Virus genome (UHGV): UHGV-0211320
DNA: 36,929 nt
Reading direction: 5' to 3' (one strand)
Origin: a virus
Every line of letters begins with the position of its first letter. Position 1 is the stretch's first letter. The translations under genes were made by a program, and so were the position numbers. Of this stretch, positions 6,024 to 25,788 are shown in pieces. The notes beneath the pieces are model-generated. The model did not search any database and was not told the DNA's origin. It saw nothing but the letters and a program-made list of their open reading frames with translations.

Positions 6024-7415
6024 TTAAATAATTGGTATTGGGTCATTCGTTACCCATGTACCTGAAATATAAGATGATCCATTTCCTGAGTATGCGACTA
6101 CGCGACTAGCTTGTGTTAAGCCTGCCCTTGCGCCAGCAGGTTGGGTTTCATTGCGATATAAAGCCAGCGGATGGTAAGCAGGATAACTTTGATCACGTTG
6201 AAATCCAGCGGGAACCAAAATAACATTTCTTGTGTTAGAAGCATCAGAAGGATAATTATTGCATTCATACTTGATTGCTATTGTGACTGTGTCTCCTTCA
6301 CGTTTAATAGTACCGTTAACGTTTGTAATATTGTCACGATCGCTAATATCATCATTAGTGATTTGGCGAATGATTTTACCTGTAACGATATTCCCTTGAT
6401 TTCTTGCTTCAGCAATTCTATTAGCCTTCACTTTTGATCCAGCTACTTTAACTCGAGCAGTTCCGTTATCGGCAATTACACCATAGTCATTTCCACTACC
6501 GCGATCATTTGAATCAATATTGATATCAGCTAAATTTCTAGCTTCAGCAATACAGTTCTGATTTTGATAGAAATTATTACTTGTACCAATTTTTGAAGCT
6601 CCTATGGCGAAAAGACATCTATTCCCTTTGCCAAAGGTATTTTCAGCGAAACGACAATTCCAAACTGCTAAGTAGCTTGATTGTTCAGAATAGATTGCAC
6701 ATTTTATATCCCCGCCAATATATGCCACACCGGAAATATTTGCCTGATCGACAAATTGAAGGCCGTTGATTTGCTGGTATCCCAGCGAGCTAATGAAGGC
6801 GATCGAACGTACTTTTACACCTAATTCTGAGCTTGTATCTGACACATTTTGTCTGTTTCGAATCGTAATGCTGACAGCTTTGAGATTCCTTACTACAACA
6901 TCTTCAAGGTATACTCCATCGCCAATCCAAATAGTTACTCGTGAACTAGTTAATAACGGTATTTGATTTACAGCAGCTTGAATTGTAAGAAATGGATTTT
7001 TTTCTGTACCATCCCCACTTTGATCACTTCCTGTTTTAGCAACATATAAATCGAGCGTTTCGCCGTATGCTCCCATAAGAGTTCCAACAGAAACATTTAG
7101 TTGATTTAGCTGACCTTGTTGATTATCTTGTCTTGTCTTTAATTCTGTATAATTCAAATTGAAAAGGTTATCCAATGCTAATAATCTCGAATAAAGCGTT
7201 GGATAGATCGTACCTTCAGCATTTGTTCGAGCATCCACTACTTCGTTAGGAGAATCACCGCCTGAATGAAGCACGAGATTATCTATACGACTGTTTGTTG
7301 ATTTGTGCTGCTCGTCTAAATTTTTTTCCAAATTTTCTAAGTAGTCCACATTGTCATTGAATGTTTCTTTCCACTCGTTGGAAATTCGGTTATTCTTCAA
7401 TTTTTCTAATTCCAA
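6024..7415 (-). CDS. Tail-associated protein with a right-handed beta-helix (pectate-lyase-like) region; candidate tail spike or depolymerase.
   Basis: Repetitive beta-helix-like middle region (NCRFAENTFGKGNRCLFAIGASKIGTSNNFYQNQNCIAEARN...) in the distal tail module. Its start codon abuts the stop of the upstream gene. Confidence 0.5.
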   Translation of the reverse strand: MELEKLKNNRISNEWKETFNDNVDYLENLEKNLDEQHKSTNSRIDNLVLHSGGDSPNEVVDARTNAEGTIYPTLYSRLLALDNLFNLNYTELKTRQDNQQGQLNQLNVSVGTLMGAYGETLDLYVAKTGSDQSGDGTEKNPFLTIQAAVNQIPLLTSSRVTIWIGDGVYLEDVVVRNLKAVSITIRNRQNVSDTSSELGVKVRSIAFISSLGYQQINGLQFVDQANISGVAYIGGDIKCAIYSEQSSYLAVWNCRFAENTFGKGNRCLFAIGASKIGTSNNFYQNQNCIAEARNLADINIDSNDRGSGNDYGVIADNGTARVKVAGSKVKANRIAEARNQGNIVTGKIIRQITNDDISDRDNITNVNGTIKREGDTVTIAIKYECNNYPSDASNTRNVILVPAGFQRDQSYPAYHPLALYRNETQPAGARAGLTQASRVVAYSGNGSSYISGTWVTNDPIPII

Positions 7416-8435
7416 CTAAATCACTCCTTTTTTCGTTAGATTAGCGAGAATTGCAGTCATTGTTTTCTTTGTGTTGCTCAATGTGATCTCTGGCGGCTTA
7501 TTTGGTATCGCTGGATACGTCTTGATTCCTACTACTTGAATATAGGTATTGACACCTAACGGCTCATAGACAAACGCCACGTAATCGCCCTTATTAGGCT
7601 CTACACGCCATTTCATAGTAACTGTGCCAGTGATTGTTGGATAGTCTTGCAAGTCTTGTTTCAAACGTTCTAGCATGTTCCCTGAAACGGTGTAACGATC
7701 ATCACTAACTGGACTTTGGACACGTATACCCCATTTTTCCGACTGCTTACTTGTATATGTGATTGGCGTGAAGTAGTAAGTGTCGTCTTCTTTTTTCTTA
7801 CCAAATCCTTTTATCTGTGTTTTCAACGAATAGGTGTCTATGTCGAACTTCACTGAATCCGTGTTGTATTTGTATCGAATCTGCTCCTGAACTTTATCGC
7901 CGAACTCTGAGCGTGGATAGAATGTTAAATGTTTGTTGTCCGGAATCACTATCGCATCATAGTCTTTCAAAATTTCTTCAACCAGTTTCAAATAGTTACC
8001 ATTCCCGAAGTTTTCTTGTTCAACTGGCAAAAACTTCTTGTTCGGATCTACAACTTCCCATGTAAAGCCGCGATTATCAGGTTTGAAAACATGCGCTAGC
8101 AGTTGGTTGATAGAGCGTGTTCCTGTGATTGTGTCGTACTGAAAGCCATCTTGCATGGTGTAGTAAATGTGCGTGGCTGTAACTGTTTTTGTGATTGCTG
8201 CCCCTTCGGCAGAAACGCCCATTTGTTTTACGATAAACTCTTGTCCATTGAAAAATACTGAATTTTCATAATCGACTAAATCAAAAGCCAATTCATTGAA
8301 TTTTGTTTTGACAATAGTGAACGAAATTTCCCACGTTTCGTTCTCTTGCCAATTTTCAGTAAATGTACTTTTATCGTAGTCAGTCAATATTTCTTTTTTT
8401 GTTTTCTCGTAGTCTTGGATAAAAATATCTTTCAA
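7416..8435 (-). CDS. Tail-associated lysin (Tal) N-terminal-like baseplate hub protein (gp27-like fold, short form).
   Basis: ~340 aa, which matches the conserved N-terminal structural domain of siphovirus Tal proteins. It sits directly after the Dit gene. Confidence 0.5.
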   Translation of the reverse strand: MKDIFIQDYEKTKKEILTDYDKSTFTENWQENETWEISFTIVKTKFNELAFDLVDYENSVFFNGQEFIVKQMGVSAEGAAITKTVTATHIYYTMQDGFQYDTITGTRSINQLLAHVFKPDNRGFTWEVVDPNKKFLPVEQENFGNGNYLKLVEEILKDYDAIVIPDNKHLTFYPRSEFGDKVQEQIRYKYNTDSVKFDIDTYSLKTQIKGFGKKKEDDTYYFTPITYTSKQSEKWGIRVQSPVSDDRYTVSGNMLERLKQDLQDYPTITGTVTMKWRVEPNKGDYVAFVYEPLGVNTYIQVVGIKTYPAIPNKPPEITLSNTKKTMTAILANLTKKGVI

Positions 8436-8443
8436 ATTACCAC

Positions 8444-9274
8444 CTACTTATACAAAAAATTGAAGTCCCATTTTGACTCCACTCTAGTAACATTTTGTAT
8501 TTCAATTTCATTCGTTCCAACCGCTAACGTTATCAAACCTAAATTCGTGTCAATTCCGCAATTTACACCGTTCAACTTCGGATAAACACGGTCTAAAGTC
8601 AAAGTTTGGCCTAGCAACGTAGAAAACTCCGGATAGTAGATGAATCGTTCCCCTGTCGTTTTGTTGAAAATAGTCACGTTGCCTTCTGATTCACCTTCCA
8701 AAGTGATTTTTAGAGCATGTTCACGTGGATCAATAGCAAAATCGCCAGCATTATAAATGATAAAATTACTGGTTCGGTGCGTATACTTATAATCTTCCGC
8801 AACTAGACCTTGTGAAAATTGCCATTCATTAGACAGTGAAAAATCCGATAACGTGGAAGCCATCGATTCGGAACAACCTCTAAAAACAGTGAAAGTCGCC
8901 TTGTAAGTTGCATATCTTAGACCAACTTCATTCACTTCTACTGAGTTAGGACGGACAAAGTATTTTTTGCCCGGTTCTCTATCTGTAAAAACATAATATC
9001 CTTCGTCATCGAATAGAAACGCATATAATTCAGTTTCTTTTAGTTGATAGTCATACATATTTTTGAATTCAGTATAAAATTCCACTTCGATAGTGAACGA
9101 TTTGAAACTTTTTTCGACTTCTCTCGAACCGTTTGACCCTGAAAATTCTTGGTATTCTACATTTAGTTGTGGTGCTTTTCGTGCAAAAGAAATACACTCT
9201 ATGCCCAATTTTTCTTTTAGAGATACTATCTCTTGATTTTTTATGAAGCGAAAATCGATTAAATAGCCATTCAC
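8444..9274 (-). CDS. Distal tail protein (Dit).
   Basis: 276-aa protein immediately downstream of the tape measure gene, which is the conserved siphovirus order TMP-Dit-Tal. Confidence 0.6.
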   Translation of the reverse strand: MNGYLIDFRFIKNQEIVSLKEKLGIECISFARKAPQLNVEYQEFSGSNGSREVEKSFKSFTIEVEFYTEFKNMYDYQLKETELYAFLFDDEGYYVFTDREPGKKYFVRPNSVEVNEVGLRYATYKATFTVFRGCSESMASTLSDFSLSNEWQFSQGLVAEDYKYTHRTSNFIIYNAGDFAIDPREHALKITLEGESEGNVTIFNKTTGERFIYYPEFSTLLGQTLTLDRVYPKLNGVNCGIDTNLGLITLAVGTNEIEIQNVTRVESKWDFNFLYK

Positions 9275-19395: not shown

Positions 19396-19566
19396 CTATA
19401 ATTCTGATTCTCGAACCAAAATAAAAACGGTAAGCATTAAACTAATGCCCACCGTCAGGAATCCGATAATCTGGTTAAACAAAAAAGCTGCGGCTATGAA
19501 TGAAACTAGCCCTAAAACATACAAAATAATCACGATTAGTCTTAACTTGTTACCATCCAAAGCCAT
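19396..19566 (-). CDS. Small two-TM membrane protein (56 aa).
   Basis: RBS GAAAGGGG upstream of ATG (MALDGNKLRL...), followed by two hydrophobic helices. It sits between terL and portal. Confidence 0.4.
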   Translation of the reverse strand: MALDGNKLRLIVIILYVLGLVSFIAAAFLFNQIIGFLTVGISLMLTVFILVRESEL

Positions 19567-21283
19567 ACTCGCCCCTTTCAATCAATTCATTGATATCTTC
19601 TTCATCAAAATCATGGTACATTGCCTGCGTGTAAGCATTAATCAACGCATCTAAAGGATCAATCTTATTTCGATTCATTGCCTTATCAATCATGATTGTA
19701 TCGTTGTTTTCTTTGGTGATTGCGTTTCTGATTGCTCTGTTAAGCAGTGGATTGTTTGAATGGACTGTTTTTCCTTTAATAACGTCCGTTCTAAATTGTT
19801 TTGTCGGAACGTTCAAAGTTATCAGTCCTTGTCGCACTTCAATCATTTCTTTCTCGTAGAATTTCGATAGATCAGTAATAACATTACCAGCATTATACGG
19901 ATCGTAAAAGATACCTTTTAGCTCAAAGTTATTACTTTCGATGAAATCAGTAAGCCAATTGACTAAATCGTGATAGTCAATCAATCCGTCCGGACTACTA
20001 CTAATCGTGCAATATCCTGCTTGCTCATATTGTCGGTATGGTGTTTTGTCTTCTTTTTCTTTTGCTTCAATTCCGCCACGATTGGCTACAAAGGAATAGC
20101 TATCAACAAAAAACTTACTTTCTTCTCTGATTGGAATGACCCACGAAATAGAAGTTAAGTCATTCACTCGTGACAAATCGACACCGATGTAAATCTCACG
20201 CCCTGTTAAGTCCGTTTGTTTGATGTAATCAGGAGCAACGGCAGAAGTCCACTCTTCTTCGCTCATATAACTTTCTTGTGAAGATTGAACCCATATGTTG
20301 AATTCTTTAGTAAGAACATTTGATATACTTCCTTTTGCTTTTCCTTCGTCTAAAAGTCGTTTTTTGTTTTCAGTTAGTCGTTCTTTTTGTTCTGATAGTT
20401 CCATTAATGGGTTGGACTTTATCCACATATCAGTGTCCACTACTTCTTTAGCATTGTCCTGTTCCCAACATAGCGCTAAATACTCATCGCCTACCACTTC
20501 TTCTTTTAGCAACTTCGTTACATACTGATACTCTATCGAGTACATTGGATAGTTTAGTTTGCTTGAAGCCGTTGAAATGATAATCGTTAGCGGTTCGATT
20601 TGTTGCCCCATTGACGTTTCGATAACATCCATCATTTCCGTTGTTTTAGACAGGGCATACTCATCAAAAATGCCCAACAATGTATCGAGACCGTCTAATG
20701 TATCTGCATCAGCAGACAGTGGTTTCATAAATGAATCATCTGTCGTAGTAAGCTCGTTTTGTAGAACCTTTGTAAATTTCTGGATCGCTTTACTTTTTCC
20801 ACGTAAGGCTTTTAATTGTGACTTAACCATAGTGAAAACGATTTTCGCTTGATCTCGTTTGTTAGCAGTAGCGTATATCTGTCTTGCTTGTCGTGGATTT
20901 CGTTCGTAAATTAGACAGTACAGCGCAATCCCTGAAACAATCAACGATTTTCCTTGCTTACGTGCTAGCGAAAGATAGGCTTTTCTGAAACGCTTGGTAT
21001 TGTCTTTCTTTCTTCGCCAGCCCCATAACATCCCTAGAATGAATTTCTGGAATAGTGCCAACTTATTAGGCTTGCCACTCTTAGGATCTGGAAGCATTGA
21101 AATGAATTTTACGATATTTTGAGTGTATTTTGGTTCGTAGTAGTAAGGAAAGTCATCTCGCTTTGACCTCTCGATATCCTTTTTGTGTCTATCAATTGCC
21201 ATCTGTATCTTCTCACAGACTAAGATATTCCCATTTTCTACTTCATCAATGTATTTTTGAACGTGATCAATCATCACTATCAA
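19550..21283 (-). CDS. terL: Terminase large subunit (Terminase_1 / HK97-type).
   Basis: 577 aa with Walker A-like LARKQGKS and an ATPase plus nuclease domain pattern. Its start overlaps the terS stop (translational coupling). Start may be TTG at 21283 or ATG at 21274. Confidence 0.9.
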   Translation of the reverse strand: MIVMIDHVQKYIDEVENGNILVCEKIQMAIDRHKKDIERSKRDDFPYYYEPKYTQNIVKFISMLPDPKSGKPNKLALFQKFILGMLWGWRRKKDNTKRFRKAYLSLARKQGKSLIVSGIALYCLIYERNPRQARQIYATANKRDQAKIVFTMVKSQLKALRGKSKAIQKFTKVLQNELTTTDDSFMKPLSADADTLDGLDTLLGIFDEYALSKTTEMMDVIETSMGQQIEPLTIIISTASSKLNYPMYSIEYQYVTKLLKEEVVGDEYLALCWEQDNAKEVVDTDMWIKSNPLMELSEQKERLTENKKRLLDEGKAKGSISNVLTKEFNIWVQSSQESYMSEEEWTSAVAPDYIKQTDLTGREIYIGVDLSRVNDLTSISWVIPIREESKFFVDSYSFVANRGGIEAKEKEDKTPYRQYEQAGYCTISSSPDGLIDYHDLVNWLTDFIESNNFELKGIFYDPYNAGNVITDLSKFYEKEMIEVRQGLITLNVPTKQFRTDVIKGKTVHSNNPLLNRAIRNAITKENNDTIMIDKAMNRNKIDPLDALINAYTQAMYHDFDEEDINELIERGEYGFGW

Positions 21284-21746
21284 CTTCGTTCATCATTTCA
21301 GCAAACGGATCGTCTGGTTCTTTCTCCATTTCTTGTGGATTGACAATCTTTAGACGTGAGTTGATTGTCAGTCCTAAATCATTAGTTGCTGTTTTCAGTT
21401 CTTTCGAGAATGAATTGACTGTATCAATCAATGGATTTTTACGACCATCGATCAAAAAGCCTTGTTCGTCTAACTCTTTGCTTGCTTTGTCGTATAAGTA
21501 TGAATAGTTGCAGTAGCGAATCATTGTTTGTTGGTCTAGTTCTGAAATAGGTAAGTCCTGAATGTAGCGAGAGATTCTATCCCACTCTTTTTGCGCTTCT
21601 TTCAAAAGCCCGACCGGATAATTTGAAAAGTCCAGTCTTGGATAGTTGTATAGCTTTTCTTCTTCGGCTTTTTTAGCTTCAATTTCTTCTTTTGTGTAAT
21701 TCTTTTTGCTTGCGTTAAGCAATTTCTTCGGCCTGCCTTTGCTCAT
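21267..21746 (-). CDS. terS: Terminase small subunit (P27 family).
   Basis: 159 aa starting MSKGRPKKLL with an acidic C-terminus, typical of phage_term_smal P27-type proteins. It lies immediately upstream of terL. Confidence 0.8.
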   Translation of the reverse strand: MSKGRPKKLLNASKKNYTKEEIEAKKAEEEKLYNYPRLDFSNYPVGLLKEAQKEWDRISRYIQDLPISELDQQTMIRYCNYSYLYDKASKELDEQGFLIDGRKNPLIDTVNSFSKELKTATNDLGLTINSRLKIVNPQEMEKEPDDPFAEMMNEVDSDD

Positions 21747-21912
21747 TTCATCACTCCTATCTATTTTACAAATTTTCTAAAGGGAATTTTTTTTCGAGAA
21801 GAGAGGGCATCGATTTTCTTCGTTCTAGCGACATAGGGCGGCTTATTTTTTATCAAAACTATTATTTAGTAATATTTATATACACTTTAGGTGAAACGCC
21901 TTAGAACGCAAA
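21747..21912. other. Candidate cos region (between the HNH endonuclease and terS).
   Basis: HNH-terS-terL adjacency is characteristic of HK97-like cos packaging, where cos lies between the HNH gene and terS. This 165-bp intergenic stretch has GC-rich blocks (GACATAGGGCGGC) inside AT-rich DNA. Ends not determinable from sequence. Confidence 0.3.
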
Positions 21913-22287
21913 TTAGAGCCTTTTAAGGTTATATGCCTTTTTATGCTCTTTGTTGTGGCACGACTGGCAAATACTTTCTAACGTATCGTAGTCTAACCTT
22001 TTATCCCAATCTTCTTTTACTTCCGTTTTATGATGGACTATCGTAGCACTGGTTATTTTCCCATTTCTCAAACACTCCTCACATAGTGGTTGGTCTGCCA
22101 GCTTGCTACGTCTTAGCTTCTTCCATTGGCTTGAAGCATAGAAGCGAGCATACTTCATGTTCTCTTTGTTGTGTCTTACTTCTCTGTTATACGTCTTGTC
22201 TGCATTGCCTTTGTGTTTCTCGCAATAACGGTTGGGTAACTCAACGTATTCGCGGCAGATAGACACAGCACATTTGATTCTAGGCAC
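21913..22287 (-). CDS. HNH endonuclease (packaging-associated).
   Basis: Cys/His motifs C..C...HH...C.SCH..EH, 124 aa, directly upstream of terS. Confidence 0.8.
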   Translation of the reverse strand: MPRIKCAVSICREYVELPNRYCEKHKGNADKTYNREVRHNKENMKYARFYASSQWKKLRRSKLADQPLCEECLRNGKITSATIVHHKTEVKEDWDKRLDYDTLESICQSCHNKEHKKAYNLKRL

Positions 22288-23155: not shown

Positions 23156-23587
23156 TTAGTCCTTTCTTATTGGAGGTCCCGGTTTTTCATCACGCTTCTT
23201 CAATATGCTTCGTTCATACTCAAGACATTCTTCATCTCTATCCCAAGGTTCGTTGCGTTTTTTTGTATAAAAGGGTTTCCCAAGTTCGCTGTGTTGCGTA
23301 CCAGACTCTACAACAAATTTCTCGATGTATTTTGATAGTGCAGGTTTAGTAATAATCAGAGTACCGTTAGGCAAAGTGTACATAAATGAATCCTTTTCGC
23401 TCACAACTTTCTCGCTTGCATAAAGTACAGATTCACCGTACTGACTGTCTACTTCAAGGCGGAACTTAGGATAGTATAAATTGTTGGCCATATCCTCAAA
23501 AGTCATCTTTTGAATATCTTCTAATTCGAATCCTTTTTCTTTCAACTCTTTCACTACATTGTTTTGTAAAAAGTCTAATGAATCCAT
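23156..23587 (-). CDS. Hypothetical protein (143 aa).
   Basis: Strong RBS AAGGAGGAG before ATG at 23587 (MDSLDFLQNN...). The longer ORF-track start is preceded by noncoding-looking sequence. Confidence 0.55.
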   Translation of the reverse strand: MDSLDFLQNNVVKELKEKGFELEDIQKMTFEDMANNLYYPKFRLEVDSQYGESVLYASEKVVSEKDSFMYTLPNGTLIITKPALSKYIEKFVVESGTQHSELGKPFYTKKRNEPWDRDEECLEYERSILKKRDEKPGPPIRKD

Positions 23588-24376
23588 TCTCGCACCACTC
23601 CTCCTTAAAATAAAAAGACCACTCAAAGAGTGATCTAATATGTAATAGCAACCTACACACAGACAAGTCTGATACTTCCTGCACCTCACCACTGCCACAT
23701 CCCTCGGTTGCTAACGAATACTGAAACAGAATACCGTCTCTGTTCATGACCAACGCGACAGTACAAAGCTTTGTCGCAAGCAGGTTATCGTATTCCTAAT
23801 AACCCCAACTAATGTTTCTCTCCTAACCTACACCTGAGAGTGGCGCACGTCTGCGCTAGTATTTTATGCCTTCTAACTGCTAGTGGCATCCCGACTAGTC
23901 AGCCAATTCATCGGCATCCGATAAGATGAATTGTTTCCGTAGGTTCCTTAAGTCACTGGCAATGAATCGAACATTGCAACACCATTTTCCGATATTTTAC
24001 AGACTCTCCATCATAAAAGCTCTCACCTCTAGAATTGTCTATCTTTAGGGGAATTATTCAAGATGCCTCTTGCCCATTACCCTCGACGGTCTCTTGCCTA
24101 GCTGCATAAACTAAGCTCAAGTGTTCATTACCACTGATTTAAGTTATTAGCGTTACCTTTCCGCCACAGTGACACTATAAAATTATTCTCGGCTGCTACT
24201 ATTTTTTATTTTGTCCATTTTTAAATCCAATCATATAGACATTAAGACAGAGCGCAAAAATTGAAATTATTAACGCCGTCATTTCTCTTTACCCACCTTT
24301 TTTAATTATTTAGTTAAGTTATATTTTTCTGATACTTGGTATGATTTCATGAGTGCAGCTGCTAAAAAATATACTG
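23588..24376. other. ~0.79 kb noncoding, relatively GC-rich, hairpin-dense island (candidate structured RNA or cis-acting packaging/recombination region).
   Basis: No ORF of 60 aa or more in any frame. Several perfect stems: GCGACA/TGTCGC (23753-23777), GCGCA/TGCGC (23841-23857), CAATTCATC/GATGAATTG (23904-23933), GGTTG/CAACC enclosing ACAGA/TCTGT, and the palindrome GACTAGTC. A T-run lies on the plus strand at 24200-24215. Confidence 0.4.
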
Positions 24377-24514
24377 CTAAGAAACTTGGATTTTAAAATT
24401 AGCAATTTCATCTAAAGTTTCTTGTAACTGTTCGACTTGGTCACTAGCCTTGTTGAGCAGTTCTTTTAGTTCAGTCAAATCTAATTTGAAAGTTGCTTTG
24501 ATTTCTTTATCCAT
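24377..24514 (-). CDS. Small hydrophilic protein (45 aa), paralog of 24953..25111.
   Basis: RBS GGAGGG 6 nt before ATG. Sequence MDKEIKATFKLDLTELKELLNKASDQVEQLQ... The 31-bp leader is identical to that of the 24953..25111 gene. Confidence 0.5.
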   Translation of the reverse strand: MDKEIKATFKLDLTELKELLNKASDQVEQLQETLDEIANFKIQVS

Positions 24515-24521
24515 TTGTTTT

Positions 24522-24552
24522 CCCTCCAATACATAAATTAATAGACAGCAAC
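24522..24552 (-). repeat. 31-bp leader repeat copy 1 (plus strand CCCTCCAATACATAAATTAATAGACAGCAAC), identical to 25119-25149.
   Basis: 31/31 identity including the SD sequence, while flanking coding sequence has diverged. Confidence 0.8.
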
Positions 24553-24653
24553 AAAATAACATTGCTTTGATAATTTGGTATCGACCACTATAAATTTCTT
24601 TTCTTGCAATTATTTTTAATATATGCTAGATTATCAACCGATATAGTCACTGC

Positions 24654-24687
24654 CTGTGCTAGCGGAAACTAGTGCAGGTTTTTTGTT
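24654..24687 (+). terminator. Plus-strand-specific intrinsic terminator (9-bp stem with two G-U pairs, loop CGGAAA, then GTTTTTTGTT).
   Basis: CTGTGCTAG/CTAGTGCAG pairing works only as plus-strand RNA (G-U wobbles), followed by a T-run. Confidence 0.4.
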
Positions 24688-24721
24688 CTATTTACTCAAA
24701 AGTTATTACGATAAATTCTTA

Positions 24722-24749
24722 TTGTGAAAATAAATACTAAGCGTATAAT
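24722..24749 (+). promoter_or_regulatory. Sigma-A-type promoter for the plus-strand gene 24802..25026 (TTGTGA-16-TATAAT).
   Basis: Read directly: -35 TTGTGA at 24722-24727 and -10 TATAAT at 24744-24749. Confidence 0.5.
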
Positions 24750-24801
24750 TTTAGTTATCAGCGAGTGGTCCGCTGAAATAATTTATAAGAAGGTATTCCT
24801 C

Positions 24802-25026
24802 ATGGAAAAATCATTCGATGAATTTGTAAATCAATTCGACAAAAAATATTATGAAGATTTAGCAAATAGTCTTACAAAGTCTTTTACAGAAAATAGTAAC
24901 GCGATTCCCATTAAAGATTTAGCAACATATTCCGTAACAATGAGTATGCAAATCACACTTCATTATTTACGTGAATATCATGAATGGCTTCATTCAAATG
25001 AGAACCAATCTTCTGATAATCAATAA
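24802..25026 (+). CDS. Small plus-strand protein (74 aa) lying in the otherwise minus-strand region, convergent and overlapping with 24953..25111.
   Basis: RBS AGAAGG, ATG at 24802, own promoter, and a downstream plus-strand terminator at 25247-25277. No family recognised. Confidence 0.5.
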   Translation: MEKSFDEFVNQFDKKYYEDLANSLTKSFTENSNAIPIKDLATYSVTMSMQITLHYLREYHEWLHSNENQSSDNQ

Positions 25027-25111
25027 TCAAAAAGCCATGCTCCTCGCTACCTTGATTAGCTTGGAGCAACTCTTTTATTTCTCCTGAAGTACCTTCAATC
25101 GATAATTTCAT
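24953..25111 (-). CDS. Small hydrophilic protein (52 aa), paralog of 24377..24514.
   Basis: RBS GGAGGG before ATG at 25111. The IKELLQANQGSEE segment resembles LKELLNKASDQVE of the paralog. Its 3' end overlaps the plus-strand gene antisense. Confidence 0.45.
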   Translation of the reverse strand: MKLSIEGTSGEIKELLQANQGSEEHGFLIIDYQKIGSHLNEAIHDIHVNNEV

Positions 25112-25118
25112 ATTCTTA

Positions 25119-25149
25119 CCCTCCAATACATAAATTAATAGACAGCAAC
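25119..25149 (-). repeat. 31-bp leader repeat copy 2.
   Basis: Identical to 24522-24552. Confidence 0.8.
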
Positions 25150-25225
25150 GGATGATAGATAATAAGAACAATTTAGAAGGAGTTGAAATTCACATCCTTA
25201 TTCTTAATATTTCCGTTGCTGTCTA
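25139..25225. repeat. 13-bp perfect inverted repeat TAGACAGCAACGG ... CCGTTGCTGTCTA flanking a 62-bp spacer, overlapping leader copy 2.
   Basis: Read directly at 25139-25151 and 25213-25225. Confidence 0.6.
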
Positions 25226-25246
25226 TCGAAGCTTAATTAAACGATG

Positions 25247-25368: not shown

Positions 25369-25788
25369 TCAACGATACTGAACTAACACGCCTTTTTTGT
25401 ATGCTTCTGCAAATTCGATCAGCGCGATGGATTTCAGCTTCTCTACATTCTTTTCACCGTATCCTCGTATCAATTGCCCTATTTCATAATTAGAGTGCTT
25501 GTTTACGTCACAGAAACTATAATAGAGTATCTGACGGCTAATCAGACTAAGAGCCATCAAAGCCGCTAGAATCGCATCTCTCTCCGCTTCTATATCCATC
25601 ATTTGAATGATCGCGTCTTCTGCCTTATTACCGTGCTTCGGTGCCTTCGGCATATCCGTAATAATCGGCGACTTAATATCTATCAAAGAGCGACCTGCCA
25701 TCCGCTCCAAACGCCGAAAGTTCTTCAGCACATCTCTCGCATTACATCTTGTCTGTTTGAAATCTACCTCTCGTAACAATTGCATCAA
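25369..25788 (-). CDS. ArpU-family phage transcriptional regulator (late gene activator, sigma region-4-like).
   Basis: 139 aa with the characteristic ...LISRQILYYSF... segment. It sits at the early/late boundary. Confidence 0.7.
   Translation of the reverse strand: MMQLLREVDFKQTRCNARDVLKNFRRLERMAGRSLIDIKSPIITDMPKAPKHGNKAEDAIIQMMDIEAERDAILAALMALSLISRQILYYSFCDVNKHSNYEIGQLIRGYGEKNVEKLKSIALIEFAEAYKKGVLVQYR

What the first reader, a model, noticed from the sequence alone, without database searches (positions are those of the whole stretch)
23588..24376. ~0.79 kb ORF-free, GC-enriched, hairpin-dense island between the late-activator region and the first late genes
This segment has visibly higher GC than its surroundings and no ORF of 60 aa or more in any frame. 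It carries multiple perfect stems (GCGACA/TGTCGC, GCGCA/TGCGC, a 9-bp stem CAATTCATC/GATGAATTG, and a nested GGTTG/CAACC enclosing ACAGA/TCTGT) and the 8-bp palindrome GACTAGTC. It ends with a plus-strand T-run at 24200-24215. Candidates are a structured noncoding RNA, the actual cos/terminase-recognition region, an ORF-less intron-like element, or a replication or recombination site. None of the annotated features explains it.
Basis: seen in the sequence. Interest (0 to 1): 0.6.

Follow-up and report, generated by a model that had tools for sequence, protein, structure and literature searches.

The report
tRNA-like modular phage noncoding RNA
The GC-rich island encodes, on the minus strand, a roughly 570-nt highly structured noncoding RNA of Enterococcus phages whose front end mimics a tRNA with the anticodon arm replaced by a large folded insert; it belongs to a module-shuffling RNA family that no Rfam model recognises and that sits beside tRNA genes and ROOL RNA in other phages.

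Summary
The structured part is 23606-24173 and is read on the MINUS strand, like all neighbouring genes. It is a noncoding RNA gene, not a cos site, an intron or an origin.

Anatomy:
- A 223-nt tRNA-like domain with a 7-bp acceptor stem, a canonical D-loop and T-loop, and no encoded CCA. A ~170-nt multi-hairpin cargo replaces the anticodon arm.
- Three further structured modules.
- An intrinsic terminator that abuts the ribosome-binding site of the next gene.

More than 130 related loci were recovered, nearly all in Enterococcus prophage contigs. Most lie between an ArpU-type activator and the HNH/terminase genes. The lytic Schiekvirus copies lie inside tRNA islands, 13 nt downstream of a ROOL RNA.

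Relatives swap whole modules exactly at the tRNA-like boundaries. At least 12 different cargo cassettes were seen. Stems keep pairing through compensatory changes.

No Rfam 15 family matches, and ARAGORN calls no tRNA or tmRNA. No paper in the held library contains the signature sequence.

Best reading: an accessory, trans-acting RNA matured by RNase P and RNase Z. Its biological role is unknown; I favour a role in phage-host conflict. Expression and processing were not tested.

The parts
23606..24173 (-). Whole predicted noncoding RNA (about 568 nt), from the first base of the tRNA-like domain to the end of the terminator T-run.
   Evidence: Homology blocks in more than 50 loci. The module map was read from the sequences. 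The minus strand folds better than the plus strand. No Rfam family matched.
23951..24173 (-). M1, the tRNA-like domain. Acceptor 5' strand GTCACTG 24173-24167; U8-G9 24166-24165; D-arm 24164-24150 (GCG/CGC stem, G13-A22, loop AAAGGTA with A14, R15, G18G19, A21); cargo insert about 24148-23978; T-arm 23977-23959 (GCAATG-TTCGATT-CATTGC); acceptor 3' strand CAGTGAC 23958-23952; discriminator U 23951. No CCA is encoded.
   Evidence: RNAalifold recovers the acceptor, D and T arms. In the scaffold alignment of 27 distinct sequences, 97.7% of cells pair and 5 pairs are compensated, with 0 of 500 shuffles reaching the score. The 76-nt relative folds into a cloverleaf and is called by ARAGORN only at a 50% threshold.
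23978..24148 (-). Cargo cassette that replaces the anticodon arm (about 170 nt, 5-6 predicted hairpins). It is one of at least 12 alternative cassettes in the family.
   Evidence: M1 length classes run from 76 to 248 nt. Consensus fold of the 7 window-type variants.
23811..23950 (-). M2, the conserved core module. Closing stem AACCTACG 23945-23938 with TGTAGGTT 23832-23825; P1 23933-23925/23912-23904; P3 23856-23852/23847-23843; P4 23840-23836/23822-23818; possible pseudoknot ATGCC/GGCAT.
   Evidence: About 85% identical to Schiekvirus noncoding DNA. Across 18 distinct sequences, 99.5% of cells pair and 4 pairs are compensated, with 0 of 500 shuffles reaching the score.
23712..23810 (-). M3, an optional three-hairpin module that is absent from the Schiekvirus and L005-type copies.
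   Evidence: Presence and absence across loci. The first hairpin has 4 compensated pairs.
23648..23711 (-). M4: closing stem GCAACC 23711-23706 with GGTTGC 23653-23648 around a cassette that has at least 4 alternative versions in relatives.
   Evidence: Sequences of relatives.
23606..23647 (-). M5: spacer TATTACATATT, then an intrinsic terminator (stem 23636-23616, T-run 23615-23606).
   Evidence: Terminator scan. The terminator is conserved in nearly all relatives, and also in L172, where the slot holds protein genes.
23585..23606 (-). Shine-Dalgarno AAGGAGG (23606-23600) and ATG (23587-23585) of the next gene. They lie directly after the terminator, leaving no room for a promoter.
   Evidence: Read from the sequence. 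ORF frame.
24199..24282 (-). 27-aa hydrophobic ORF (MTALIISIFALCLNVYMIGFKNGQNKK) ending 25 nt upstream of M1. It is probably co-transcribed with the RNA.
   Evidence: Translation. A homologue lies upstream of M1 in 37 of 133 loci.

Best explanation
The island is a gene for a long, modular, structured noncoding RNA transcribed on the minus strand (24173 to about 23606).

Shown here by computation:
1. Its 5' domain is a tRNA mimic. It keeps the parts of a tRNA that form the acceptor/T-arm stack and the D-loop/T-loop elbow. The anticodon arm is replaced by a ~170-nt folded cargo.
2. Three more structured modules follow, and the RNA ends at an intrinsic terminator.
3. The family evolves by swapping whole modules, with junctions exactly at the first base of the tRNA-like domain and just after its discriminator base.
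4. It occupies an accessory slot between the ArpU-type late activator and the first late genes in temperate Enterococcus phages. In lytic Schiekviruses it occupies tRNA islands next to ROOL RNA.

Inferred, not shown:
- The RNA is made together with the small upstream ORF or from read-through.
- RNase P cuts at G24173. Because no CCA is encoded, RNase Z cuts after U23951.
- This would release a stable tRNA-shaped particle that displays the cargo, plus a separate ~345-nt RNA protected by the terminator hairpin.
- The same cuts would define the ends of neighbouring RNAs, such as the 3' end of ROOL in Schiekviruses.

The products would act in trans as accessory RNAs. The role I favour is in phage-host or phage-phage conflict, for example a decoy or sponge for tRNA-binding factors or nucleases. 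That last step is speculation.
For: Strand:
- The minus strand folds to -180 kcal/mol against -128 for the plus strand.
- G-U pairs are frequent in conserved stems.
- All flanking genes are on the minus strand.

tRNA mimicry:
- The acceptor, D and T arms are recovered by RNAalifold.
- 97.7% of cells pair in the scaffold alignment, with 5 compensated pairs, 4 of them among the 6 T-stem pairs.
- The T-loop is TTCGATT or TTCGAAT, and the D-loop carries GG.
- The 76-nt relative folds as a cloverleaf. ARAGORN at a 50% threshold calls it with exactly the predicted ends.

Other modules:
- M2 pairs in 99.5% of cells, has 4 compensated pairs, and no shuffle out of 500 reaches its covariation score.
- M3 hairpin A has 4 compensated pairs.

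Modularity:
- M1 lengths range from 76 to 248 nt.
- Whole RNAs range from about 194 to more than 1000 nt.
- At least 10 unrelated upstream contexts all join at G1, one of them 4 nt after a real tRNA.
- Real tRNAs are embedded downstream of M1 in L005, L002, L092, L072, L167 and L120.

Context:
- An ArpU homologue lies upstream in 84 of 133 loci; the phrog_1202 gene lies downstream in 69 and HNH in 44.
- ROOL (265 bits) ends 13 nt before M1 in Schiekviruses.
- The terminator is at 23636-23606.

Not a known family: there was no Rfam hit at gathering threshold or at E<=10, and no tRNA or tmRNA call by ARAGORN.
Against: - There is no expression, end-mapping or processing data. The promoter is not identified, and consensus matches upstream are weak.
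- Sequence diversity is modest and confined to one genus, so compensated pairs are few. Some may reflect a handful of ancestral events.
- Several scaffolds carry an A-C mismatch in the acceptor stem (4 of 27 distinct scaffolds).
- The T-stem has 6 bp rather than 5, which is not a canonical RNase P/Z substrate geometry.
- The terminator and the slot are also used by protein-coding cargo, so the terminator belongs to the slot rather than to the RNA.
- The closest relative of the late genes lacks the RNA, so it is dispensable for growth.
- The proposed biological role has no direct support.
Confidence: 0.7

Rival explanations
1. Cis-acting leader of the late operon. Under this reading the structured RNA and its terminator form an attenuator or processive-antitermination element, comparable to lambda tR'/6S RNA, HK022 put or EAR RNA. 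It would gate transcription from an ArpU-dependent promoter into the late genes.
For: The position is right: between the ArpU-type activator (phrog_248) and the HNH/terS/terL genes. The terminator T-run runs straight into the RBS of the next gene, so downstream genes must be read through it. The terminator is conserved even when the cargo differs.
Against: The same modules sit inside tRNA islands of lytic Schiekviruses, where no late operon follows. The content upstream of the terminator is freely exchanged, including for protein genes, so the RNA modules cannot be required for read-through. The conserved tRNA-like elbow has no role in known antiterminators.
Confidence: 0.12
2. A decaying remnant of a phage tRNA island: former tRNA genes and spacers drifting without function.
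For: Real tRNAs occupy equivalent positions in relatives. A degenerate tRNA-like element replaces tRNA-Lys in some loci. The RNA can be lost. Truncated 5' halves of M1 exist in L080, L110, L112 and L118.
Against: The scaffold pairs in 97.7% of cells across 27 distinct variants, with compensated changes. The elbow nucleotides are invariant. M2 is about 85% identical between temperate siphoviruses and lytic Herelleviridae. Cargo cassettes are themselves folded and conserved. More than 130 loci keep the element.
Confidence: 0.1
3. A DNA-level site: cos/pac recognition, an origin, or a recombination hotspot sequence.
For: The region is hairpin-dense, lies upstream of the packaging genes, and module junctions show that recombination happens here.
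Against: Folding is strand-asymmetric, and G-U pairs are valid on one strand only. The element occurs in phages with different terminase types and far from terminase genes in Schiekviruses. For this HNH/Terminase_4 phage, cos is expected in the HNH-terS region near 21747-21912; this rests on general knowledge of HNH-dependent cos phages and was not tested.
Confidence: 0.04
4. An ORF-less self-splicing intron or another known ribozyme.
For: Its size and structural density.
Against: No group I or II intron family and no other ribozyme family matched at E<=10. No interrupted host gene is present. The RNA ends in an ordinary intrinsic terminator.
Confidence: 0.02

Closest known systems
ROOL RNA (Rfam RF03087)
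   Same: A large, ornate, phage- or prophage-encoded RNA of Firmicutes with no known protein partner, found near tRNA islands (PMC5737381, PMC12286853). In Schiekviruses a ROOL gene ends 13 nt upstream of this element.
   Different: The ROOL covariance model does not match the window at all. ROOL has one fixed ~580-nt architecture, whereas this RNA is a chain of exchangeable modules led by a tRNA mimic.
GOLLD RNA
   Same: It has a variable 5' part and a conserved 3' part, tRNAs are sometimes embedded in the linker, and it occurs in phage tRNA islands (PMC12286853). The layout of a variable region, an embedded tRNA and a conserved module is similar.
   Different: No Rfam family, GOLLD included, matched the window or the 20 related loci scanned. 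Sizes and motifs differ. Here the tRNA-shaped unit is a non-decoding mimic that carries cargo.
mascRNA/MALAT1 and the murid herpesvirus 68 tRNA-miRNA (TMER) transcripts
   Same: A tRNA-like fold within a longer noncoding transcript serves as an RNase P / RNase Z cleavage signal that defines the ends of the neighbouring RNA (general knowledge). The proposed mechanism is the same.
   Different: Those are eukaryotic or herpesviral and unrelated in sequence. Processing here is inferred, not shown. mascRNA has no cargo insert.
tmRNA
   Same: The 5' and 3' ends form an acceptor stem next to a T-arm, with a large structured insertion in place of the anticodon arm.
   Different: ARAGORN finds no tmRNA. 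There is no G3-U70 alanine identity pair, no encoded CCA, and no tag reading frame was detected. The domain is followed by 345 nt of further RNA.
Bacterial Y RNA YrlA
   Same: A modular noncoding RNA that contains a tRNA-like D/T-arm elbow (bioRxiv 10.1101/312249).
   Different: My recollection is that the YrlA transcript ends form the Ro-binding stem rather than the acceptor stem; I did not verify this. No Rfam family matched here. No Ro60/Rsr gene was seen in the window, though I did not search for one systematically.
Engineered 'tRNA scaffold' for recombinant RNA expression (Ponchon and Dardel; general knowledge)
   Same: The design is identical: a foreign structured RNA inserted in place of the anticodon stem of a tRNA so that the chimera is processed and stabilised like a tRNA.
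   Different: That is a laboratory construct. This would be a natural counterpart with at least 12 natural cargo cassettes.

Membership tests
canonical tRNA | Cloverleaf with a 7-bp acceptor stem, a D-arm, and a T-arm carrying a T-loop and D-loop GG. | tested here: met
   The T-stem, however, has 6 bp rather than 5.
canonical tRNA | A 5-bp anticodon stem with a 7-nt loop, U33 and an anticodon. | tested here: not met
   The arm is replaced by 17-190 nt of varied sequence. The shortest version has the loop AAAAUUU without U33.
canonical tRNA | Detected by ARAGORN or by the Rfam tRNA model. | tested here: not met
   It is called only at a 50% ARAGORN threshold.
tmRNA | Detected by ARAGORN or the Rfam tmRNA models; a tag ORF with a resume codon; G3-U70. 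| tested here: not met
   Position 3-70 is C-G.
ROOL (RF03087) | Match to the family covariance model at or near its gathering score (99.1 bits). | tested here: not met
   No hit even at E<=10. The same search finds ROOL at 263-266 bits in L001, L003 and L026.
GOLLD | Match to the Rfam family model, which covers the conserved 3' domain. | tested here: not met
   No hit in the window or in 20 related loci.
Group I / group II introns and other ribozymes | Match to the Rfam intron or ribozyme models. | tested here: not met
RNase P / RNase Z substrates (tRNA-like processing signals such as mascRNA) | Acceptor/T-arm coaxial stack plus elbow, a CCA-less 3' trailer, and cleavage by the enzymes. | not testable with these tools
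   The structural prerequisites are present. Cleavage itself needs an experiment.
Intrinsic (Rho-independent) terminator | A GC-containing stem followed by a T-run on the transcribed strand. | tested here: met
   A 9-bp stem at 23636-23616 followed by TTTTTATTTT.

The most novel reading that the evidence does not exclude
This is a previously undescribed class of large phage RNAs, a third companion to ROOL and GOLLD in phage tRNA islands. Under this reading a tRNA mimic serves as a natural 'tRNA scaffold' that is matured by RNase P/Z and displays interchangeable structured cargo cassettes. The cassette diversity would reflect an arms race, for example decoys for tRNA-directed defence nucleases or sponges for host factors. 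In Schiekviruses the tRNA mimic would also set the 3' end of ROOL.
Probability: 0.35. Interest if true: 0.85.

Novelty: new variant of a known kind. Interest (0 to 1): 0.68.

Why it matters
- Large structured bacterial and phage RNAs are rare, and the known ones (ROOL, GOLLD, OLE) have proved structurally remarkable while their functions remain open. This element shares their genomic niche and is physically adjacent to ROOL in a group of therapeutic-candidate Enterococcus phages. It could therefore give a handle on what that niche is for.
- It would be a natural example of the tRNA-scaffold principle used in RNA engineering, and a bacterial parallel to RNase P/Z 'punctuation' of noncoding transcripts.
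- It shows that annotation pipelines leave a conserved ~0.6-kb gene unmarked in many Enterococcus faecium-group prophages. tRNA finders and Rfam both miss it.

Tried and rejected
- Rfam at gathering threshold on the whole window and at E<=10 on 23300-24800 gave only noise-level hits. The same was true of the 76-nt relative.
- ARAGORN at default settings found nothing.
- A three-way MAFFT alignment of whole elements was misleading because modules are not collinear. I switched to per-module alignments.
- The single-sequence MFE fold of the whole RNA mispairs the acceptor strand, so I did not use it for the anatomy.
- I first took the conserved block upstream of M1 in many relatives (TTTCAGCGG...TTCACAATATTAATTT) for the RNA's promoter. 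Its conserved hexamers actually fit a divergent promoter on the other strand, TTGTGA-16-TATAAT, so the RNA's own promoter remains unidentified.
- PADLOC and Pfam on the flanking and slot proteins gave no defence annotation.
- Literature searches for the motif sequence and for a tRNA-like Enterococcus phage RNA found nothing. A 2023 catalogue of 10,006 unnamed viral candidate RNAs (PMC10690425) could contain fragments of it, but its sequence files are not held.
- A comparison of M1 with phage tRNAs to find an ancestor was inconclusive because the ARAGORN output was line-wrapped.
- The one genome-contig scan used a strict M2 pattern and found only three Enterococcus species. It therefore says little about distant relatives.

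Full report
**1. The observation**

Region 23588-24376 lies between a gene that starts at ATG 23587 on the minus strand and a small minus-strand ORF at 24377-24562.
- GC is 0.43-0.435 across 23600-24200. It is 0.37 to the left and 0.29-0.31 to the right. Only the left 600 nt of the finding is GC-enriched.
- 'ORF-free' is true for ATG starts only. Two mechanical GTG/TTG ORFs overlap the left edge. A conserved 27-aa ORF with a good ribosome-binding site lies at 24199-24282(-).
- Every neighbouring gene is on the minus strand. These are an ArpU-type activator at 25369-25788 (phrog_248, E 2e-40), HNH at 21913-22287, Terminase_4 at 21267-21746 and TerL at 19550-21283.
- The minus strand of the island folds far better than the plus strand: -180.1 kcal/mol (z = -3.25) against -127.7 (z = -1.27).

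**2. Known families**

- Rfam 15 gives no match at gathering scores for the whole window, and nothing meaningful at E<=10 for 23300-24800.
- ARAGORN finds no tRNA or tmRNA.

**3. Relatives**

- BLAST against GenBank phages finds only Enterococcus phages.
  - Window 23809-23959 is about 85% identical to unannotated DNA in six 150-kb lytic Schiekviruses.
  - Window 23609-23717 is 89% identical to the temperate phage EH-TP1.
- In the Schiekviruses the match lies inside a tRNA island. It starts 13 nt downstream of a ROOL RNA scoring 265 bits.
- In EH-TP1 the equivalent intergenic gap holds a real tRNA.
- Exact-pattern scans of IMG/VR returned 39, 36 and more than 120 loci for three motifs. About ten of the last set are GC-rich chance hits.
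- A strict M2 pattern found three Enterococcus species among the GTDB representatives.
- Further BLASTs with relatives' versions again hit only Enterococcus phages, apart from an embedded genuine tRNA-Lys.

**4. Anatomy (minus strand; read)**

*M1 (24173-23951), the tRNA-like domain.*
- GTCACTG pairs with CAGTGAC to form a 7-bp acceptor stem.
- U8-G9 is followed by a D-arm: a GCG/CGC stem with G13-A22 and the loop AAAGGTA, giving A14, R15, G18G19 and A21.
- The T-arm is GCAATG-TTCGATT-CATTGC, with the G53-C61 pair and a T54-Psi55-C56-type loop.
- The discriminator is U, and no CCA is encoded.
- About 170 nt of multi-hairpin RNA stands where the anticodon arm should be.

*M1 in relatives.*
- The same scaffold carries inserts that give M1 lengths of 76, 87-89, 98, 104-108, 112, 127-132, 161-165, 222-223 (the window type) and 247-248 nt.
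- The 76-nt version folds into a perfect cloverleaf. ARAGORN calls it, with exactly these ends, only when its threshold is halved. The Rfam tRNA model does not score it.

*M2 (23950-23811).* This is a multi-stem domain closed by AACCUACG/UGUAGGUU. It contains hairpins P1, P2, P3 and P4 and a possible AUGCC/GGCAU pseudoknot.

*M3 (23810-23712).* Three hairpins. The module is absent from some relatives.

*M4 (23711-23648).* A GCAACC/GGUUGC stem around a cassette with at least four alternative versions.

*M5.* A short spacer followed by an intrinsic terminator: stem 23636-23616 and T-run 23615-23606. The AAGGAGG of the next gene follows immediately.

**5. Evidence that the structure is selected**

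| Module | Distinct sequences | Cells paired | Compensated pairs | Covariation score (observed vs shuffled) | Slid controls |
|---|---|---|---|---|---|
| M1 scaffold | 27 | 97.7% | 5 (4 of the 6 T-stem pairs, 1 in the acceptor) | 0.194 vs 0.094, 0/500 shuffles | 27-41% paired |
| M2 | 18 | 99.5% | 4 | 0.137 vs 0.073, 0/500 shuffles | 28-38% paired |
| M3 hairpin A | 8 | not computed | 4 | not computed | not computed |

- P3 of M2 shows the classic series G-C, G-U, A-U and U-A.
- Many conserved pairs are G-U, which fits RNA made from the minus strand.
- Caveat: diversity is limited to one genus, the numbers are modest, and they partly reflect shared ancestry. Four of the 27 scaffolds have an A-C mismatch at acceptor position 4-69.

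**6. Modularity and junctions**

- From the 5' motif to the terminator, relatives measure from about 194 to more than 1000 nt.
- Modules are present, absent or replaced independently.
- At least ten unrelated upstream sequences join the element exactly at G1 of M1. In one of these, a real tRNA ends 4 nt before it.
- Downstream sequences diverge right after the discriminator and one or two U residues.
- Real tRNAs are embedded after M1 in several relatives. In some loci a degenerate tRNA-like unit replaces tRNA-Lys.
- The module boundaries therefore coincide with the sites where RNase P and RNase Z would cut a tRNA precursor.

**7. Genomic niche**

- Among 133 loci with M1, an ArpU homologue lies upstream within 5 kb on the same strand in 84. 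A phrog_1202 gene lies downstream in 69, HNH in 44, and the 27-aa ORF upstream in 37. These are lower bounds, because many loci are truncated.
- The closest GenBank relative of the window's late genes is 93% identical and is labelled an unverified 'Listeria phage'. In the same slot it has a DUF6731 protein and a membrane protein, followed by the same terminator.
- The slot is thus an accessory-cargo hotspot, and the RNA is dispensable for phage growth.

**8. Mechanism**

*Shown by computation:* a conserved, strand-specific, modular RNA with a tRNA-mimic 5' domain and a terminator.

*Inferred:*
- Transcription is with the upstream small ORF or by read-through.
- RNase P cleaves at G24173.
- RNase Z cleaves after U23951. 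CCA-less precursors are RNase Z substrates in Bacillus-type bacteria (general knowledge).
- Cleavage releases a tRNA-shaped carrier of the cargo and a separate ~345-nt RNA capped by the terminator hairpin.
- In Schiekviruses the same cut would form the 3' end of ROOL, much as mascRNA processing forms the 3' end of MALAT1.

The parts conserved here (acceptor, T-arm, elbow) are those that RNase P and RNase Z recognise, and the part that varies (the anticodon arm) is the one they ignore. That is the main argument for this reading.

The biological role is unknown. Given the accessory slot, the cassette diversity and the tRNA islands, I favour a role in phage-host or phage-phage conflict, such as a decoy or sponge for tRNA-binding factors. 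This is speculation.

**9. Rivals**

- *A cis-acting late-operon leader or attenuator.* This explains the terminator abutting the next RBS. It does not explain the Schiekvirus copies or the free exchange of content.
- *A decaying tRNA island.* This explains the neighbourhood and the truncated copies. It does not explain the maintained pairing or the 85% identity across unrelated phage families.
- *A DNA site (cos, ori).* The strand asymmetry, the G-U pairs and the occurrence with different packaging systems argue against it.
- *An intron or ribozyme.* No model matches.

**10. Novelty**

- No Rfam 15 family matches.
- No paper in the held library contains the signature sequence.
- Searches for a tRNA-like Enterococcus phage RNA found nothing.
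- A 2023 catalogue of 10,006 unnamed viral candidate RNAs might include fragments, but this could not be checked.
- ROOL and GOLLD are the closest in niche (PMC5737381, PMC12286853). mascRNA, TMER transcripts, tmRNA, YrlA and the engineered tRNA scaffold are the closest in design.
- I file it as a new variant of a known kind, phage-encoded structured RNAs of tRNA islands with tRNA mimicry, and not as a member of any named family.

**11. Verdict**

The finding is a real and fairly interesting noncoding RNA gene. Expression, processing and function remain untested.

Noticed in passing
window 24199-24282 (-): A 27-aa ORF, MTALIISIFALCLNVYMIGFKNGQNKK, with a hydrophobic helix and a basic tail. It has the RBS AAAGGTGGG and ends 25 nt upstream of the RNA. 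It resembles small membrane peptides or type I toxins. A homologue lies upstream of M1 in 37 of 133 loci.
   Followed up: partly
window 24722-25026 (+): A small divergent plus-strand gene (74 aa, weak match to phrog_8353) among minus-strand genes. Its promoter is TTGTGA-16-TATAAT, and its 5'-UTR hairpin (24758-24776) partly matches Rfam Ref1C (30 bits, gathering score 90). A full Ref1C hit (93.7 bits) occurs in relative L108. In about 45 relatives this block abuts the RNA directly.
   Followed up: partly
window 24567-24685 (+): A promoter-like site (24567-24596) is followed by a strong terminator-like hairpin with an 11-bp stem (24652-24679) on the plus strand. Together they could specify an ~80-nt plus-strand small RNA antisense to the leader of the 24377-24562 ORF.
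   Followed up: no
window 24512-24552 and 25109-25149; 25138-25152 / 25212-25226: A 41-nt direct repeat (90% identical) forms the RBS leader of two small minus-strand ORFs. There is also a perfect 15-nt inverted repeat whose arms are 59 nt apart. The same inverted-repeat-framed element sits directly upstream of the tRNA-like domain in L005/L022-type relatives, so it may be a further leader module.
   Followed up: partly
L172 (OR846730.1) 7076-8587: A GenBank record labelled 'UNVERIFIED_ORG Listeria phage LM 4-11-1' is 93% identical to this Enterococcus-type phage across the terminase region. In the RNA's slot it carries a DUF6731 protein and a 174-aa membrane protein, followed by the same terminator. 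The host label may be wrong.
   Followed up: partly
L079, L105, L141, L171 (downstream of M1); L005 4189-4263: Where L005 has a genuine tRNA-Lys(UUU), other relatives have a degenerate tRNA-like unit, GACGTG...GAGGTTCGACTCCTC...CACGTC. It may represent the conversion of a tRNA into a tRNA mimic.
   Followed up: partly
window 23701-23711, 24080-24090 and relatives: The short motif CGAGGG recurs at the 5' side of M4 and inside several unrelated cargo cassettes. GUGUAGGUU recurs at the 3' side of both M2 and M4. These could be shared tertiary-contact or protein-binding motifs.
   Followed up: no
window 21747-21912: The 166-bp gap between the HNH endonuclease gene and the small terminase gene is the more likely cos region for this phage. 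This rests on general knowledge of HNH-dependent cos phages and was not examined.
   Followed up: no
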